Source of the DNA: Chloroflexia bacterium
Lineage (GTDB): Bacteria; Chloroflexota; Chloroflexia; QHBQ01; JADMIH01
Assembly: GCA_039920445.1 (NCBI GenBank)
Contig: JBDSDS010000242.1
Coordinates: forward strand, 1-28,627
Length of the DNA stretch: 28,627 nucleotides
Reading direction: 5' to 3'
The first letter of the stretch is position 1, and the number at the start of each line of letters is the position of its first letter. Positions 8,979 to 18,265 of the stretch are shown one piece after another. The translations under genes and the position numbers were made by a program. The notes beneath the pieces are model-generated. The model saw nothing but the letters and a program-made list of their open reading frames with translations. It was not told where the DNA came from and searched no databases.

Positions 8979-9189
8979 TCCCTTACCCTTCTTTCACAAG
9001 CCACAACCGGATGAGACTCGCTTGGCGTAGCGGCTAGATAAAACTAGCTACACCGTCTGTAAAAATCCCTCTGCAGAATAGAAAAAACTAGTCATGCGAG
9101 GAAGGACTTGCCTCCGCTATAGTCTGCACATGACAAACACCCAATCGCGGGTACACGAAGCAGACTTTAGTGAAAACAAGGAGGCAACA

Positions 9190-9771
9190 ATGAAGGTTCT
9201 ATTCTCTCTCATCGTCCTGGTAGCTGCCGTTGTAAGCACAGGCACTCTACAAGCATACGCCCAGGCGAAAGACCCCGCGTCGGTCATTGCCTATGGGACC
9301 GCCCAGGTGAATGCTCATAACCTCGATGCGTTGATGTCCATATTCGCAGACGATGCGGTAGTCAACAACGATGGAACTTTGTTCGCCGGCAAGGAACAGG
9401 TACGTGGATTCTTGAAGGCAGCACTTGACGATTTTATCAGCACCACCATCGTGGGCGAGTTCACAGTAAACGGTAACAAGGTAACCTGGCGGGAAGAAGA
9501 TCGCATCAAGTCACTCACGCAGATAGGCGTCCCCGTGATTTATAGCAGCGGCGAGGCTGTCGTAGAGGACGGTCTGATCAAATCGATGGTATTCACGACC
9601 GAAGCTGCCTCGATAGCCGAAATAGAGAGGGCCATGGCTGCTGTTCCCAGCGGCATGCCATCGACAGGCGCTAATGAGGTCTTGAACTTCATAATGATGG
9701 CAGTTGTTGGAGCCATTCTAGTTGTCGCGGGCCTTATGGTGAGGACACGAAGGGCTGGCATAACACACTAA
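9190..9771 (+). CDS. Secreted NTF2/SnoaL-like protein with a C-terminal LPXTG-type (MPSTG) sorting signal
   Basis: ATG 9190 follows AAGGAGG; signal peptide ending AYA-QA; SnoaL-like VNAHNLDALMSIFADDAVV...GKEQVRGF; C-terminal MPSTG, hydrophobic helix and RTRR tail. Confidence 0.8.
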   Translation: MKVLFSLIVLVAAVVSTGTLQAYAQAKDPASVIAYGTAQVNAHNLDALMSIFADDAVVNNDGTLFAGKEQVRGFLKAALDDFISTTIVGEFTVNGNKVTWREEDRIKSLTQIGVPVIYSSGEAVVEDGLIKSMVFTTEAASIAEIERAMAAVPSGMPSTGANEVLNFIMMAVVGAILVVAGLMVRTRRAGITH

Positions 9772-9788
9772 CAACACTTAGAAAGCAC

Positions 9789-9830
9789 AAAAGAGTAGCA
9801 GTTCCCACCATCGGGGATGCTGCTCTTTTT
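9789..9830 (+). terminator. Rho-independent terminator, probably bidirectional
   Basis: AAAAGAGTAGCA...TGCTGCTCTTTTT stem with an inner TCCC/GGGA, a T-tract and a mirrored A-tract, 17 nt after the stop at 9771. Confidence 0.85.
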
Positions 9831-9882
9831 GACGCTCTGTATGTCAGGCTGAATACGTCGAACAGAATACGGTAGCCTTCTA

Positions 9883-9921
9883 TGCTATACTTAAATGTGC
9901 TATTTCAGGGGAGGACTCCAG
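9883..9921 (+). promoter_or_regulatory. Extended -10 promoter and RBS of the hisS 5' stub
   Basis: TGcTATACT at 9883-9891; GGGGAGG RBS at about 9908-9914 ahead of ATG 9922. Confidence 0.6.
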
Positions 9922-10056
9922 ATGCCAGAAGAGTTAGAGCAAAGAAGCAAATCGAGGATATATCCTCAGCACCTCATGGGCTTCCGCGATCTAATGCCTG
10001 CCAGCATATCTGTGCTTTCAGCCTTGACATTTGAGCTTCCCTGTTCTACAATCTAG
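9922..10056 (+). pseudogene. Orphan 5' fragment of a histidyl-tRNA synthetase gene (44-aa ORF; the first 26 codons are hisS-like)
   Basis: MPEELEQRSKSRIYPQHLMGFRDLMP versus hisS ISKITPQRLKGFRDLMP: 12/16 aa identical and 35/45 nt identical (9955-9999 versus 10815-10859). Confidence 0.85.
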
Positions 10057-10070
10057 ACAGACTAGACAGG
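10024..10070 (+). promoter_or_regulatory. Sigma70 promoter of the TA-hisS operon with a tandem operator-like repeat
   Basis: TTGACA (10024-10029), 17 nt, TACAAT (10047-10052), followed by CTAGACAGA/CTAGACAGG direct repeats (10053-10070). Confidence 0.85.
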
Positions 10071-10093
10071 TTAGCTAGAAAGATTGGGTTTGC

Positions 10094-10348
10094 ATGGCCC
10101 GTATATGGCAACTTCAAGAGGCAAAGAATAAGCTGAGTGAAGTCGTTGAGGAGGCCTTGAAGAGTGGTCCGCAAGTCATAACCCGGCGCGGTGTTGAGAC
10201 GGCGGTTGTTCTCTCTATCGACGACTACAAGAAAATGCTGCTCGGTCAGAAGAGGCTCTCTGATTTCTTCCGAGAATCTCCACTCGCCGGTGTAGATGTT
10301 GATATAGCACGCGATACCAGCCCCATACGCGATGGCGGCGTCATGTAA
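10094..10348 (+). CDS. Type II TA antitoxin, Phd/YefM family
   Basis: WQLQEAKNKLSEVVEEA...GPQVITRRG...AVVLS; 84 aa; directly upstream of a PIN gene. Confidence 0.92.
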   Translation: MARIWQLQEAKNKLSEVVEEALKSGPQVITRRGVETAVVLSIDDYKKMLLGQKRLSDFFRESPLAGVDVDIARDTSPIRDGGVM

Positions 10349-10353
10349 ATGCT

Positions 10354-10773
10354 GTGAGGTATCTGCTGGACACTAACGTTATCTCAGAGCTTGTTGCCAG
10401 GAAACCAAATGCGCAGGTAATCGAGTGGATTGATGCGCTGGACCCCAGCAGCGTTTACCTCAGCGTTATCACCATAGGTGAGTTAAGTAAGGGTATCGAG
10501 AAGCTGGTAGAGTCGCCCCGGAAGGACAGACTTCGCGCCTGGCTGAGTGATGATTTGCTGGTTCGCTTCGATGGGAGGCTGTTGTCACTCGACGTAGAAG
10601 TAATGCTAACGTGGGGTCGCCTGGTAGCACAGTTGGAGCGTACTGGTAGAAGCCTGCCGGCAATTGATTCCCTGATTGCTGCGCTGGCGATCCATCACCA
10701 TTGCAGTCTGGTCACACGGAACCAGGGAGATTTCATGGATACAGGCGTGACAGTCGTTAACCCATGGACGTAA
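10354..10773 (+). CDS. vapC: Type II TA toxin, VapC PIN-domain ribonuclease
   Basis: YLLDTNVISE, LSVITIGEL..G, IDSLIAALA, LVTRNQGDF; the acidic PIN residues are present. Confidence 0.93.
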   Translation: MRYLLDTNVISELVARKPNAQVIEWIDALDPSSVYLSVITIGELSKGIEKLVESPRKDRLRAWLSDDLLVRFDGRLLSLDVEVMLTWGRLVAQLERTGRSLPAIDSLIAALAIHHHCSLVTRNQGDFMDTGVTVVNPWT

Positions 10774-10784
10774 AGGAGACCTGA

Positions 10785-12152
10785 GTGGGCCAGGATCAAC
10801 CAGAGAAGATTAGCAAGATAACTCCACAGCGCCTCAAAGGCTTCCGCGACCTCATGCCCGAAGCCATGTTCGTGCGCCAGCATGTGGTGGACACGCTCAG
10901 GGGCATCTTCGAGATGCACGGCTTTGCTCCTCTTGAGACGCCTTCCCTCGAATACGCCACCACCCTCGAAGGCAAGTACGGCGACGCCGAGCGGCTTATC
11001 TACAAGTTTGAGGACAAGGGCGGGCGCAAGGTCGGCATGCGCTATGACCTCACCGTACCCCTCGCCCGCGTGGTGGCGATGCACCTCAACGACATACAGT
11101 TGCCCTGGAAGCGCTACCAGATCAGCCCAGTGTGGCGCGGCGAGAACCCGCAGTATGGGCGTTACCGCGAGTTCTACCAGTGCGATATCGACATCGTAGG
11201 CTCAGCCTCGATGGTGGCCGATGCTGAAATCCTCTCTATCTACGGCGAAGTGATGCAAAAGCTTGGCTTCACAGGCTACCGCGTGCTGATCAACAACCGC
11301 AAGCTGCTGGCGGGGCTGGCTCGGAGCGCGGGCGTGCCTTCCGACCAGGCGGGCACTATCTTCCGGGCCGTCGACAAGCTCGATAAGCTAAGTCCCGAAG
11401 CTGTGAGGGCCGAGATGGTGCGCAACGGCATAGACGATGGTGTGGCCGGGCGCGCGCTCGGCCTCTTTCTCACAGGCAAGGATGTTCGCACCTTCAACGA
11501 CAATATGGCCCTGCTGGGCGAACTTTCCGGCCCCCTCAAGAACGACCCACAGGCTACCGAAGGCATACAGGAGCTAAGCCAGATACTTGAGGCGCTTGGC
11601 AGCATGGGCGGCGACCTGGACCGCTTCAGGGTTGACATAGCCCTGGCGCGCGGCCTTGACTATTACACCGGCCCCGTCTACGAAATAGTGGTTGACGAGC
11701 CAAAGATAGGCTCGCTGGGCGGGGGCGGGCGCTACGACGAGCTTATGTCGCTCTTCTCAGGCCGCAACCTGCCTACCACCGGCGCATCGTTCGGCATGGA
11801 GCGCATCGTCGACGTGATGATAGACCTCAACATGATCGCCCCACGCTCGACCCCTAGCCGCGCACTCATCACGGTCTTCGACGCCACTCCCCAGAGCACG
11901 GGTGCTTCTCTCAGCCTCGCCTCCGAACTGCGTGGCCAGGGTATTCCTTGTGAAGTGTATCTTAACCCAGGCGACAAATTAGGTAAGCAATTCGCCTACG
12001 CCGACAGGCTGGGTATACTGTTTGCTATCGTACTTGGGCCAGACGAAATCTCTAACGGCACCGCAACCGTAAAAGAGCTAGGAGCGCCGCCCCCCAACCA
12101 ACAGACGGTCGAGAGGGCATCACTGGCTAAAGTGTTAGTAACGAGGGGTTAG
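10785..12152 (+). CDS. hisS: Histidine--tRNA ligase
   Basis: GFRDLMP, MRYDLTVPLAR, WRGENPQYGRYREFYQCDIDIVG, LARGLDYYTG, GGGRYD, GASFGMERI and the anticodon domain KLGKQFAYAD. GTG start after AAAGGAG. Confidence 0.98.
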   Translation: MGQDQPEKISKITPQRLKGFRDLMPEAMFVRQHVVDTLRGIFEMHGFAPLETPSLEYATTLEGKYGDAERLIYKFEDKGGRKVGMRYDLTVPLARVVAMHLNDIQLPWKRYQISPVWRGENPQYGRYREFYQCDIDIVGSASMVADAEILSIYGEVMQKLGFTGYRVLINNRKLLAGLARSAGVPSDQAGTIFRAVDKLDKLSPEAVRAEMVRNGIDDGVAGRALGLFLTGKDVRTFNDNMALLGELSGPLKNDPQATEGIQELSQILEALGSMGGDLDRFRVDIALARGLDYYTGPVYEIVVDEPKIGSLGGGGRYDELMSLFSGRNLPTTGASFGMERIVDVMIDLNMIAPRSTPSRALITVFDATPQSTGASLSLASELRGQGIPCEVYLNPGDKLGKQFAYADRLGILFAIVLGPDEISNGTATVKELGAPPPNQQTVERASLAKVLVTRG

Positions 12153-12192
12153 GAGTTAGAAACGTGAAACGTGAAAACCGACCCCTGATCCC
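12146..12192. repeat. Nested heptamer hairpin between hisS and the MATE gene
   Basis: GGGTTAG GAGTTAG / AAACGTG AAACGTG / CCGACCCCTGATCCC; the outer arms pair with G-U wobbles. The first heptamer supplies the hisS TAG. Confidence 0.7.
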
Positions 12193-12209
12193 AGAAAGAG
12201 CAACCCGAC

Positions 12210-13886
12210 TTGAAACGCAGCCCCAATGCCGCACCTGCCGGACCCACCGCGCCGGTCAAGCATAAAGATAACGGACACATCTCAGATGAAATAGCAGCGG
12301 AAGAAGCCGCACAACAGGTGGCCGCAGCGACCGACAGCGCGGTGATGGGCGGCTTCTCGATTGAGCCTGCGGCTCAGGCCGAAGCGGTGGTCGAGGGTGA
12401 GGAGCAGGTCGGCGACGTACTTACTCCCGAAGCGCGCAAAGAGGTGGGGCGCAAAGTCTTCAGGCTCGCCTGGCCCGCTATCGCCGAGAACGCCCTCCAG
12501 ACCCTCCTCGGCATCGTAGACACGGCAGTCGTGGCCCGCCTGGGCACAGCCGCGCTTTCCGGCGTGGGCGCATCACAACAGTTTATCTGGGTGCTTACGA
12601 CAGGTCTCATAGCCGTCAGCATGGGCACAACCGTTTTGATTGCGCGGTTTACGGGTGCGAGCCAGCCGGAGCGCGCAAACGCAGTCCTGAAACAGTCGCT
12701 GATGTTGGCTGCGGTGGTCGGCCTGTTACTTGCCCCGGTCGGCTTCTTCGCTCAAGACCTGATGAATACGCTCGGCCTATCGAGTGCGGCGGCAAAAGAA
12801 GGCGCAACATACCTCAGCATAACCCTCTTCACAGCCGTGCTGATTGTGATTATGTTCGTGGCGGGTGCGGCGCTCAGAGGCGCGGGCGACGCCAAGACCC
12901 CGATGTACGTTACTGGCTTCATCAACATCATCAACGCGGTGCTGGCGGTGGAGCTTGTCTTCGGTGGCGCGAAAGCGAGCGGCATCCTGGGCGGTTGGCT
13001 AAGCGGCCTCGTCTCGATATTCGTGCCGGGAGCGCAGGTAGACGTGCCTGGATTGACCTGGATACCGGAGATGGGCGTGGCGGGCGCGGCCTGGGCTGCG
13101 GTAATAGCACGTGCCATCGGCTCCCTGATCCTGTTGAGCTTCTTCCTCATGCCCAAATCGGCGCTCCAATTCTGGCGAGGCGGTTCGTGGCGACCCAACC
13201 TGAGCCTCATCGGACGCATCCTGAAGGTGGGCATCCCCGCCGCGCTGGAGCAGATGCTGATGTCGGTCGGTATACTGGTCTATAGTTTCCTCGTCATCGG
13301 CATGGGGGAGGTGATATTCGCCACATCTCGCCTCGCGCTCAATGCCGTCTTCCTGTCACAGATGCCCGGCTTCGGCTTCTCGATGGCGGCCACTACTCTC
13401 GTGGGGCAAAGCCTGGGTGCACGGCAGCCAGAAAGAGCCAAACTGGGGTCGCAACTCGCCACCCGCTCGGCACTCATCTGGATGAGCGTAATGGGCGTGG
13501 CTTTCTTCTTCTTCGGCGAGCAGATTCTGCACATCTTCACCGACGACCCGGAACTACTGAGGCTCGGCAACGACGCAATGAAGGTAATTGCATTCAGCCA
13601 GCCGCCGCTTGCCCTCGCGTTCGTGCTGGCAGGCTCGTTGCGTGGCGCGGGCGACGTGCACTTCCCGATGGTGGTCACGACGGTGGCGGTCTGGCTAGTC
13701 AGGCTGCCGACCGGGGCCTTCCTGGGGCTGCAAACCGTCTGCATACCCTTTACAAGCGTTTGTATGCCGGGGCTTGGTTGGGGCCTGCCTGGCATCTACG
13801 CCGCGCTCATCGTAGAGGCAAGCTTCCGGGCCATCCTAATGTACAGGCGCTTCAAGGCCGGCAAGTGGCAGACGATGAAGGTGTAA
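12210..13886 (+). CDS. MATE-family efflux transporter with an acidic N-terminal extension
   Basis: LAWPAIAENALQTLLGIVDTAVVARLG, ALRGAGDAKTPM, MGVAGAAWA, VGQSLGA, GSLRGAGD, YRRFKAGKW; about 12 TM segments. Confidence 0.93.
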   Translation: MKRSPNAAPAGPTAPVKHKDNGHISDEIAAEEAAQQVAAATDSAVMGGFSIEPAAQAEAVVEGEEQVGDVLTPEARKEVGRKVFRLAWPAIAENALQTLLGIVDTAVVARLGTAALSGVGASQQFIWVLTTGLIAVSMGTTVLIARFTGASQPERANAVLKQSLMLAAVVGLLLAPVGFFAQDLMNTLGLSSAAAKEGATYLSITLFTAVLIVIMFVAGAALRGAGDAKTPMYVTGFINIINAVLAVELVFGGAKASGILGGWLSGLVSIFVPGAQVDVPGLTWIPEMGVAGAAWAAVIARAIGSLILLSFFLMPKSALQFWRGGSWRPNLSLIGRILKVGIPAALEQMLMSVGILVYSFLVIGMGEVIFATSRLALNAVFLSQMPGFGFSMAATTLVGQSLGARQPERAKLGSQLATRSALIWMSVMGVAFFFFGEQILHIFTDDPELLRLGNDAMKVIAFSQPPLALAFVLAGSLRGAGDVHFPMVVTTVAVWLVRLPTGAFLGLQTVCIPFTSVCMPGLGWGLPGIYAALIVEASFRAILMYRRFKAGKWQTMKV

Positions 13887-18217: not shown

Positions 18218-18265
18218 CCTGTCTAGTCTGCCTGCCATTATATTCCTGGGTGTTAAGGGTGTCAA
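18218..18265 (-). promoter_or_regulatory. Consensus sigma70 promoter of the GT4 gene (probably also YfhO) with CAGACTAGACAGG at the start site
   Basis: Minus strand TTGACA (18265-18260), 17 nt, TATAAT (18242-18237); the 13-mer lies at 18230-18218. Confidence 0.88.

What the first reader, a model, noticed from the sequence alone, without database searches (positions are those of the whole stretch)
9883..10859. TA module wedged between an orphaned hisS 5' end and a diverged replacement 5' end
Seen: a promoter, RBS and ATG 9922 encode a HisRS N-terminus (SRIYPQHLMGFRDLMP). Similarity stops at 9999, 24 nt before the TA promoter, and the real hisS restarts 11 nt after vapC. The two copies are 35/45 nt identical, with 4 of the 10 differences synonymous. 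Inference: this is not a recent tandem duplication. A phd-vapC cassette probably recombined into the 5' end of an essential synthetase gene and brought or regenerated an allelic 5' end, as elements that integrate into CDSs do. No integrase is present in the window.
Basis: partly seen in the sequence, partly recalled or inferred. Interest (0 to 1): 0.7.

Follow-up and report, generated by a model that had tools for sequence, protein, structure and literature searches.

The report
Orphaned hisS start beside toxin-antitoxin
A decayed copy of the first 31 codons of the essential histidyl-tRNA synthetase gene, still carrying the gene's usual promoter, sits upstream of a toxin-antitoxin pair that is wedged against the working gene. 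Comparison with related soil Chloroflexia suggests it is a scar of recombination at an integrase-free hot spot for accessory genes.

Summary
Bases 9922-10016 are a decayed copy of the first 31 hisS codons. The genus-typical extended -10 promoter (9883-9891) and a ribosome-binding site still precede it (nhmmer E 1.5e-9 in the whole 2.27-Mb assembly).

A complete Phd/YefM-VapC (PIN, FitB-like) module with its own promoter and operator follows at 10024-10773. The working hisS starts at GTG 10785, 11 nt after vapC, with no recognisable promoter of its own.

In 24 other genomes of this uncultured soil Chloroflexia genus, the gap between a conserved DnaE-like gene and hisS is variable (0.6-6.1 kb where both flanks were found). 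No recombinase was found there. It holds toxin-antitoxin genes of five kinds in 11 genomes including this one.

The phd-vapC module is orthologous in two sister species, so it is old. The closest relative lacks it.

The stub and the working 5' end belong to different hisS 5' allele classes, so they are not a local duplication. Two other species carry hisS stubs one gene upstream of hisS.

Best reading: a scar of recombination between relatives, with one crossover inside hisS and one illegitimate join. Which side was the incomer is unresolved. The mechanism is known but the location is unusual; interest is moderate.

The parts
979..4722 (-). DnaE-like gene (PHP, Pol III alpha, HHH, OB domains); conserved left flank of the variable slot
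   Evidence: Pfam. Homologues lie divergently upstream of hisS in 13 fetched relatives of the genus.
4864..9771 (.). Accessory genes of the island: DUF5946, an unknown ORF, a methyltransferase, a STAND/LuxR regulator and a SnoaL-like protein
   Evidence: Pfam. Only 4804-6520 is shared with the closest relative G020. No orthologue of the SnoaL region was found by DNA search in the genus. GC is 50-57% against 60-64% in hisS and MATE.
9797..9830 (+). Terminator-like hairpin plus T run after the SnoaL-like gene
   Evidence: One search reports a stem at 9801-9818 followed by a T-rich tail; read from the sequence.
9883..9891 (+). Extended -10 promoter (TG-n-TATACT), the usual hisS promoter type of this genus; predicted transcription start near 9898
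   Evidence: It is the only such motif in 9700-10800. The same TGnTATAAT/TATACT motif lies roughly 35-100 nt upstream of hisS in many relatives, including the outgroup genera. Promoter activity is inferred.
9910..9914 (+). Ribosome-binding site of the stub ORF
   Evidence: GGAGG lies 7 nt before ATG 9922.
9922..10016 (+). hisS 5' stub: 31 hisS-like codons, of the 'Met-Pro-acidic-acidic' allele class, decayed
   Evidence: nhmmer E 1.2e-10 and 1.5e-9. Class assignment. Two replacements in the QRLKGFRD box, which is otherwise nearly invariant.
10017..10056 (+). Out-of-homology tail of the stub ORF; it runs through the TA promoter to stop codon TAG at 10054-10056
10024..10069 (+). TA promoter (TTGACA, 17-nt spacer, TACAAT) with a tandem CTAGACAG operator-like repeat; left edge of the conserved cassette
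   Evidence: Promoter scan gives 11 of 12 matches. It is conserved in most cassette copies elsewhere in the genus, and homology among copies begins at the -35 box.
10094..10348 (+). phd/yefM-type antitoxin gene (84 aa)
   Evidence: PF02604, E 1.9e-16. 78% identical to the G003/G005 orthologues; dN/dS about 0.1.
10354..10773 (+). vapC (PIN) toxin gene (139 aa), FitB-like; right edge of the cassette is its stop codon
   Evidence: PF01850, E 4.8e-18. Matches FitB 2H1C at E 2.5e-24, with Asp6, Glu43 and Asp105 aligned to FitB Asp, Glu and Asp. Homology among cassette copies ends at the stop codon.
10774..10784 (+). 11-nt spacer with AGGAG; no promoter or terminator
   Evidence: The spacer and the following variable codons resemble the G023 hisS start (about 82% over 60 nt by my own count).
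10785..12152 (+). Working hisS (455 aa, GTG start). The 5' variable part is of the G023/G019 class; from about 10836 onward the gene is closest to G020.
   Evidence: Pfam tRNA-synt_His plus the anticodon-binding domain. It is the only hisS match in the assembly. Mosaic pattern.
12210..13886 (+). MATE efflux gene; conserved right-hand neighbour
   Evidence: Pfam MatE. Found downstream of hisS in most relatives.

Best explanation
The stub is a recombination scar at the right edge of an integrase-free hot spot for accessory genes, which lies between a conserved DnaE-like gene and hisS.

Origin. Island content, together with the non-conserved first 15-30 codons of hisS, is exchanged between related lineages. 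The right-hand crossover falls in or just after the conserved QRLKGFRD-coding box. In the G000 lineage one such exchange had one homologous crossover in hisS. Its other end was joined illegitimately at about 10016-10023, as in homology-facilitated illegitimate recombination. This left an older hisS start (promoter, RBS, 31 codons) stranded upstream of the phd-vapC module and of a hisS start of another allele class.

Present function (inferred). hisS has no promoter of its own. It is made as the last cistron of a stub-phd-vapC-hisS transcript. That transcript is driven by the retained housekeeping promoter at 9883-9891 and by the autoregulated TA promoter at 10024-10052, and hisS is translated from its own AGGAG/GTG.

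Shown: the anatomy, the allele classes, the hot spot, the age of the TA and the absence of a recombinase. Inferred: the join mechanism, the direction of transfer and the transcripts.
For: 1. The stub is real and decayed.
2. The stub and the working start are different alleles. The working start is G023-like, while the rest of the gene is sister to G020 (99% support).
3. Against the closest relative G020, homology breaks at 6520 and resumes at 10836, inside hisS at the conserved box.
4. The slot is variable, 0.63-6.1 kb in the 13 fetched relatives where both flanks were found plus this genome. It holds Pfam-confirmed TA genes of five kinds in 11 of the genus genomes examined. PIN genes number only 3-17 per 5-6 Mb genome.
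5. No recombinase family was found among the island ORFs scanned.
6. Two more species carry hisS stubs with the same layout, 'stub, one gene, working start': G024 at L078:5481-5529 (E 4e-6) and G020 at L032:4776-4833 (z 7-10 to the G006 start).
7. phd-vapC is old and under purifying selection: its tree is congruent with hisS, dS is 1.1-1.65 and dN/dS is about 0.1.
8. Island GC is 48-56% against 60-64% in the core genes.
9. [quoted passage not shown] One-sided homology with an illegitimate join is a described process (PMC3240628).
Against: - No donor sequence is known, so microhomology at the 10016-10023 join cannot be checked.
- Under the simplest one-step model, the working gene should be donor-like at least to the position matching the stub's end (about 10879). 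Codons 26-31 of the working gene instead match G020, not G023. More than one event, or a donor that shared those codons, is needed.
- G003 and G005 carry the same TA without a stub and keep a promoter between vapC and hisS, so the order of events is not simple.
- The allele classes rest on 30-60 nt segments.
- All genomes are metagenome bins, and no reads were available to verify the joins.
- No transcription data exist.
Confidence: 0.55

Rival explanations
1. Same mechanism with the opposite direction. The phd-vapC module and the working hisS start are the residents. The stub arrived as the right-hand tip of an imported left segment (STAND/LuxR, SnoaL, hisS promoter and 31 codons) taken from a donor where that segment abutted hisS. 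It was joined illegitimately just upstream of the TA promoter.
For: The TA has been next to hisS since the common ancestor with G003 and G005. The LuxR and SnoaL genes are specific to G000. The last six codons of the stub resemble neither G000 nor G020 (8 of 18 nt differ) and are closer to the G003 type (5 of 18), by my own count on the sequences.
Against: All three stubs found (G000, G020, G024) lie exactly one gene unit upstream of the working start. That fits an incoming 'gene plus new start' better. The working start itself is not of the clade's own type but G023-like. No genome was found with a SnoaL gene next to hisS.
Confidence: 0.22
2. A local tandem duplication of the hisS 5' region (or of TA plus the 5' region), followed by deletions and divergence of the unconstrained copy.
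For: Tandem duplications are common. 35/45 identity over the conserved box. Neutral decay over the time since the G000-G020 split (hisS dS 0.68) could give about 25% divergence.
Against: In the variable segment the two copies are no more alike than unrelated alleles (z 1.7), while each has a clear partner class elsewhere in the genus. Several two-base codon differences occur in the last six shared codons. Extra deletions are needed to remove a second promoter and a first TA copy.
Confidence: 0.1
3. A site-specific element: a cassette that targets the hisS 5' coding region through a dedicated recombinase and carries a replacement start, like integrative elements that restore the gene they enter, or an integron-like array.
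For: TA units and small ORFs are stacked in one orientation next to hisS in several species. The cassette has sharp edges, from the -35 box to the stop codon. The G020 and G024 stubs share about 20 nt beyond the break.
Against: No integrase, transposase or resolvase family appears among the island ORFs scanned. The unit has no flanking repeats. Only 11 nt separate vapC from hisS, which leaves no room for an attC-like site. The break points in hisS differ: after the Val codon at about 10016 in G000, and at about the Gly-Phe-Arg codons in G020 and G024. Cassette copies at other loci carry no hisS piece.
Confidence: 0.08
4. An assembly artefact: two strain variants of the locus joined into a chimeric contig.
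For: G000 is a fragmented metagenome bin (374 contigs, 58% complete).
Against: The join at 10016-10024 is not at a sequence shared by the two putative variants. The stub carries disabling changes in an invariant box, so it is not a working allele of a co-occurring strain. Similar stubs occur in two independent bins.
Confidence: 0.04

Closest known systems
Hot spots of horizontal transfer without mobile elements, diversified by recombination in the flanking core genes (Oliveira et al. 2017, PMC5635113)
   Same: A variable slot lies between two conserved genes. There is no recombinase, gene turnover is rapid between close relatives, and the flanking core gene shows mosaic ancestry.
   Different: Here the right-hand boundary lies inside the coding region of an essential gene, in its non-conserved N-terminal extension. 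As a result the gene's start is swapped with the island and truncated starts are left behind. The content is dominated by toxin-antitoxin pairs.
Homology-facilitated illegitimate recombination (one homologous anchor, one illegitimate join; summarised in PMC3240628)
   Same: It explains a foreign segment that is joined by homology on one side (hisS) and without homology on the other (10016-10023), close to the anchor.
   Different: HFIR has been shown experimentally in transformable bacteria and in E. coli conjugation. Here it is only inferred from the product. The donor, any microhomology and the uptake route are unknown.
Integrative elements that enter a gene and carry a replacement end, e.g. 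e14 in icd of E. coli (from my own knowledge, not checked here)
   Same: A displaced gene fragment and a working allelic end flank the inserted DNA, and the essential function is preserved.
   Different: Those elements encode an integrase, use a defined att site and usually replace the 3' end. Here there is no integrase and no repeat, and the 5' end with its promoter is displaced.
FitAB / VapBC type II toxin-antitoxin modules (FitB, PDB 2H1C and 2BSQ)
   Same: The toxin is a PIN protein aligned end to end with FitB (E 2.5e-24). A small antitoxin gene lies upstream, and the promoter carries a repeat-containing operator-like site.
   Different: The antitoxin is of the Phd/YefM type, not the ribbon-helix-helix FitA. 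The module is followed, 11 nt later and without a promoter, by an essential tRNA synthetase gene.
Integron cassette arrays rich in toxin-antitoxin cassettes
   Same: Small units in one orientation, often TA pairs, are stacked at one site.
   Different: There is no IntI, there are no attC-like sites, and the units carry their own promoters.

Membership tests
Type II toxin-antitoxin, Phd/YefM antitoxin with VapC (PIN) toxin | Two small adjacent genes, antitoxin first, with matching Pfam families | tested here: met
   PF02604 at E 1.9e-16 (84 aa) followed 5 nt later by PF01850 at E 4.8e-18 (139 aa).
Type II toxin-antitoxin, Phd/YefM antitoxin with VapC (PIN) toxin | PIN acidic active-site residues | tested here: met
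   Asp6, Glu43 and Asp105 align with Asp, Glu and Asp of FitB 2H1C. At the fourth position the protein has Thr-Arg-Asn followed by Asp in Gly-Asp-Phe. From my own knowledge this resembles the enteric VapC pattern.
Type II toxin-antitoxin, Phd/YefM antitoxin with VapC (PIN) toxin | Own promoter with an operator for autoregulation | tested here: inconclusive
   A near-consensus promoter with a tandem 8-nt repeat just after the -10 box is conserved in most copies across the genus. Binding was not tested.
Type II toxin-antitoxin, Phd/YefM antitoxin with VapC (PIN) toxin | Toxicity that is neutralised by the antitoxin | not testable with these tools
   Purifying selection (dN/dS about 0.1) suggests that both genes are functional.
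Class II histidyl-tRNA synthetase (working gene 10785-12152) | Catalytic core and anticodon-binding domain, full length | tested here: met
   PF13393 at E 4.8e-48 and PF03129 at E 4.9e-13. 90% identical to the G020 protein, and the only hisS match in the assembly.
Product of homology-facilitated illegitimate recombination | One junction within homology to the recipient, the other without homology | tested here: met
   Ancestry switches inside hisS near 10836-10860. There is an abrupt loss of homology at 10016-10023.
Product of homology-facilitated illegitimate recombination | Microhomology of a few bases at the illegitimate join; identifiable donor | not testable with these tools
   No donor or closer relative was found.
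Site-specific integrative element or integron cassette | Recombinase gene in or beside the element | tested here: not met
   No recombinase Pfam family among the island ORFs scanned, in G000 and in the relatives whose islands were sampled.
Site-specific integrative element or integron cassette | Direct repeats (att) or attC-like sites at the unit ends | tested here: not met
   Flanks of nine cassette copies are unrelated right up to the -35 box and the stop codon. Only 11 nt separate vapC from hisS.
Tandem duplication | The two copies derive from one allele | tested here: not met
   The variable segments score z 1.7 to each other, against 3.8-6.2 to their respective classes.
Hot spot flanked by core genes | Conserved flanks, variable content, and recombination signal in a flank | tested here: met
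   The DnaE-like gene and hisS flank the slot in 13 fetched relatives plus this genome, with sizes of 0.63-6.1 kb. hisS 5' classes are incongruent with the core tree.

The most novel reading that the evidence does not exclude
The start of hisS serves as a landing pad for serial, recombinase-independent capture of single-gene units. Each unit arrives with its own replacement hisS start and pushes the previous start upstream as a stub, so the stubs form a fossil record of the captures. The layout 'stub, one unit, working start' is seen in three species. A further possibility is that RNase-type toxins are kept there because co-transcription with a tRNA synthetase is useful.
Probability: 0.15. Interest if true: 0.7.

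Novelty: new variant of a known kind. Interest (0 to 1): 0.45.

Why it matters
The locus shows that the boundary of an accessory-gene hot spot can lie inside an essential gene. The dispensable N-terminal extension of HisRS is traded along with the island, and truncated gene starts record earlier junctions.

It also places an essential synthetase gene with no recognisable promoter of its own, so that it probably depends on read-through across a toxin-antitoxin operon. That is a testable case of a housekeeping gene coupled to a TA promoter.

For annotation, it warns that short 'genes' with good promoters upstream of TA modules can be displaced gene starts. It also shows that HisRS start codons in this lineage (GTG or TTG a few bases after a toxin gene) are easily miscalled.

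Tried and rejected
- **Closer relatives.** Scans of genome contigs and metagenome contigs with HisRS returned nothing closer than the genus genomes already in hand.
- **Second hisS or hisZ as the source of the stub.** There is only one match in the assembly. A genome-wide profile search finds only the gene and the stub.
- **RNA element in the leader (T-box or other).** No Rfam match in 9700-10900 at E up to 1.
- **Long recombination tract in hisS.** Sliding identity shows that the gene is uniformly closest to G020 after about the first 50-70 nt.
- **SnoaL or LuxR neighbours as a marker of the stub's origin.** No orthologue next to hisS in the fetched loci; the DNA search found only LuxR paralogues elsewhere.
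- **hisS pieces beside cassette copies at other loci.** None.
- **The operator-like repeat as a dispersed promoter element.** The 23-nt site is unique in the assembly. Only a 13-mer recurs, at 18218-18230.
- **Literature on TA modules upstream of hisS.** Nothing relevant found.
Full report
**Anatomy**

Downstream of a SnoaL-like gene and its terminator-like hairpin (about 9797-9830), the + strand of the window carries the following features in order.
- An extended -10 promoter motif at 9883-9891, then GGAGG at 9910-9914 and ATG at 9922.
- A 44-codon ORF. Its first 31 codons are HisRS-like. The remaining 13 are unrelated and end at a stop codon (10054-10056) inside the next promoter.
- A near-consensus sigma-70 promoter at 10024-10052 (11 of 12 matches, the only one found in 9000-12400), followed by a tandem 8-nt repeat.
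- An 84-aa Phd/YefM antitoxin gene (10094-10348) and a 139-aa PIN toxin gene (10354-10773).
- An 11-nt spacer with AGGAG, then hisS from GTG 10785 (455 aa, complete domains), then a MATE gene.

The toxin aligns end to end with FitB (2H1C, E 2.5e-24), with three acidic active-site residues in place. Between 10053 and 10785 I found neither a promoter of either type nor a terminator.

**Checking the observation**

One point needs correcting. Similarity to hisS runs to about 10016, not 9999, so the break is 8 nt before the TA -35 box.

A profile built from the first 120 nt of hisS in the genus finds the stub at E 1.2e-10 among the fetched loci. It finds it at E 1.5e-9 in the whole 2.27-Mb assembly, and nothing else apart from the gene itself.

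The stub has His and Met where the QRLKGFRD box has Arg and Lys. That box is intact in 78 of 79 homologues that include the N-terminus. The stub is therefore a decaying fragment, not a second working allele. This also argues against an assembly chimera of two strains.

**Context in relatives**

The window comes from a 58%-complete metagenome bin of an uncultured soil Chloroflexia/Chloroflexota genus. Twenty-five other genomes of the genus are held, and 24 of them have a hisS locus that I could examine.

In 13 of the 20 relatives whose upstream region was fetched, as in this genome, the same DnaE-like gene lies divergently upstream of hisS. The stretch between the two genes ranges from 0.63 to 6.1 kb.

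Pfam confirms toxin-antitoxin genes in that stretch in 11 genomes, counting this one:
- Phd plus PIN in G000, G003 and G005.
- BrnT plus CopG, and DUF433 plus DUF5615, in G020.
- BrnT plus CopG and a HicB fragment in G024.
- HicA in G010.
- DUF433 plus DUF5615 in G006, G008 and G014.
- PIN_3 in G007 and G021.

Classical PIN genes number only 3-17 per 5-6 Mb genome in this genus, so the concentration at this one slot is not a density effect. None of the island ORFs that I scanned matched a recombinase family. Island GC is 48-56%, against 60-64% in hisS and the MATE gene.

The tool flags G021 and G022 as unpublished. The claims that rest on them are:
- the PIN_3/DUF433 content of G021, without which the count is 10 genomes;
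- the statement below that two nearly identical hisS cores carry different 5' classes.

**Age of the TA module**

G003 and G005 carry the same module (74% nt, 77-79% aa identity) directly upstream of hisS. A tree of nine cassette copies from the genus puts G000 with G003 and G005 (99% SH-aLRT). This is the same relationship as in the hisS core tree, where (G000, G020) is sister to (G003, G005).

Synonymous divergence of phd and vapC between G000 and G003/G005 is 1.1-1.65. That is similar to hisS at 1.0-1.4, and dN/dS is about 0.1. The module has therefore most likely sat beside hisS since the ancestor of these four species and has been kept functional. G020, the closest relative (hisS 90% aa identity, dS 0.68), has lost it.

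G003 and G005 have no stub. They keep about 95 nt between vapC and hisS, including a hisS-type -10 motif. So inserting the TA did not by itself create the stub.

**Allele classes of the hisS start**

The 10-20 codons before the conserved box vary greatly in this lineage, but they fall into recognisable classes.
- The stub belongs to the widespread class that starts Met-Pro-acidic-acidic (z 3.8-4.1 to G022, G011, G010 and G020).
- The working start, together with its 11-nt spacer, resembles G023 and G019 (z 6.2 and 4.1; about 82% over 60 nt). Those two genomes sit in a distant, well-supported clade of the core tree and have no TA there.
- The stub and the working start score only z 1.7 to each other.

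From about 10836 onward the working gene is uniformly closest to G020. Against G020, homology is lost at 6520 and regained at 10836, inside hisS. At least one island replacement since that split therefore included the hisS start.

G021 and G022 (unpublished) have almost identical hisS cores but different start classes. The start of hisS thus travels with the island rather than with the gene.

**More stubs**

The same profile finds a second hisS start in G024 (L078:5481-5529, E 4e-6). It lies between a HicB fragment and a 127-aa ORF, about 520 nt upstream of the working start.

G020 has one at L032:4776-4833, right after its DUF5615 gene. A 198-aa ORF and then the working start follow it. This match is weak by profile (E 0.49), but the sequence clearly belongs to the G006/G008 class (z 7-10).

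The two stubs resemble each other, including about 20 nt beyond the break. In all three species the order is stub, one gene unit, working start. Copies of the phd-vapC cassette at other loci in the genus carry no hisS piece.

**Interpretation**

The data fit the published picture of hot spots without mobile elements that diversify by recombination in their flanking core genes (PMC5635113). The particular feature here is that the crossover zone lies in the first codons of an essential gene.

A stub is expected when one end of the incoming DNA pairs within hisS and the other end is joined without homology a short way upstream. Homology-facilitated illegitimate recombination yields exactly that product (PMC3240628).

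I cannot tell which of two versions applies:
- the TA with the working start came in and displaced the older start, which the repeated 'stub, one unit, start' layout favours;
- the stub came in as the tip of the left-hand segment, which the age of the TA at this site favours.

Neither one-step version explains every detail. Codons 26-31 of the working gene match G020 rather than G023, so more than one event is likely.

I rate the other readings lower. A local duplication is disfavoured by the allele classes. A site-specific element is disfavoured by the lack of a recombinase and repeats and by the differing break points. An assembly artefact is disfavoured by the decayed state of the stub and by the independent bins that carry stubs.

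**How the locus probably works now (inferred)**

The only promoters upstream of hisS are the retained housekeeping promoter at 9883-9891 and the TA promoter. No terminator intervenes. hisS should therefore be the last cistron of a transcript that begins at about 9898 or about 10059.

The promoter, RBS and ATG of the stub remain intact while its coding part decays. That is what one would expect if the promoter is still needed to express hisS independently of TA autoregulation, but this is a hypothesis.

**Limits**

- All genomes are metagenome bins and no reads were available.
- The allele classes rest on short segments.
- No expression or toxicity data exist.

Noticed in passing
L039:1490-2230 and L058:1490-2230 (G012, two loci on one contig): Two copies of the same phd-vapC cassette are about 99% identical exactly from the -35 box to the last sense codon. 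Their flanks are unrelated and even their stop codons differ. This points either to gene conversion between old paralogues or to movement of a promoter-to-stop unit by an unknown route.
   Followed up: partly
Slot between the DnaE-like gene and hisS in 24 genus genomes (loci L032-L034, L065-L081): The slot is a hot spot for toxin-antitoxin genes of five kinds (Phd/PIN, BrnT/CopG, DUF433/DUF5615, HicAB, PIN_3). No recombinase was detected among the ORFs scanned.
   Followed up: yes
L032:4776-4900 and L078:5462-5570: The hisS stubs of G020 and G024 are alike and share about 20 nt beyond the point where hisS homology ends, although the genes on both sides differ. This could reflect shared ancestry of the junction or a preferred join sequence.
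   Followed up: partly
hisS start in relatives (loci L002-L024; proteins P0001-P0091): The N-terminal extension of HisRS before the conserved box is hypervariable in length (about 3-45 residues in the called proteins). Where a toxin gene lies directly upstream, hisS starts with GTG or TTG from a few nt to about 100 nt after that gene's stop. Such starts are easy for gene callers to miss.
   Followed up: partly
window 10058-10070 and 18218-18230 (- strand): The 13-mer noted earlier in this scan recurs just after the -10 box of a second strong promoter. The full 23-nt TA operator-like site is unique in the assembly.
   Followed up: partly
window 979-4722 (- strand): The conserved left flank is a DnaE-like gene with weak Pfam scores for the polymerase domains. 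An earlier follow-up of this scan called it catalytically dead. I did not examine its active sites.
   Followed up: no
window 10771-10787 compared with G023 (L015) and G019 (L012) hisS starts: The 11-nt spacer after vapC aligns with the last codons and stop codon of an unrelated 136- to 205-aa ORF that precedes hisS in G019 and G023. It may be a remnant of that gene's end, but it is too short to test.
   Followed up: no
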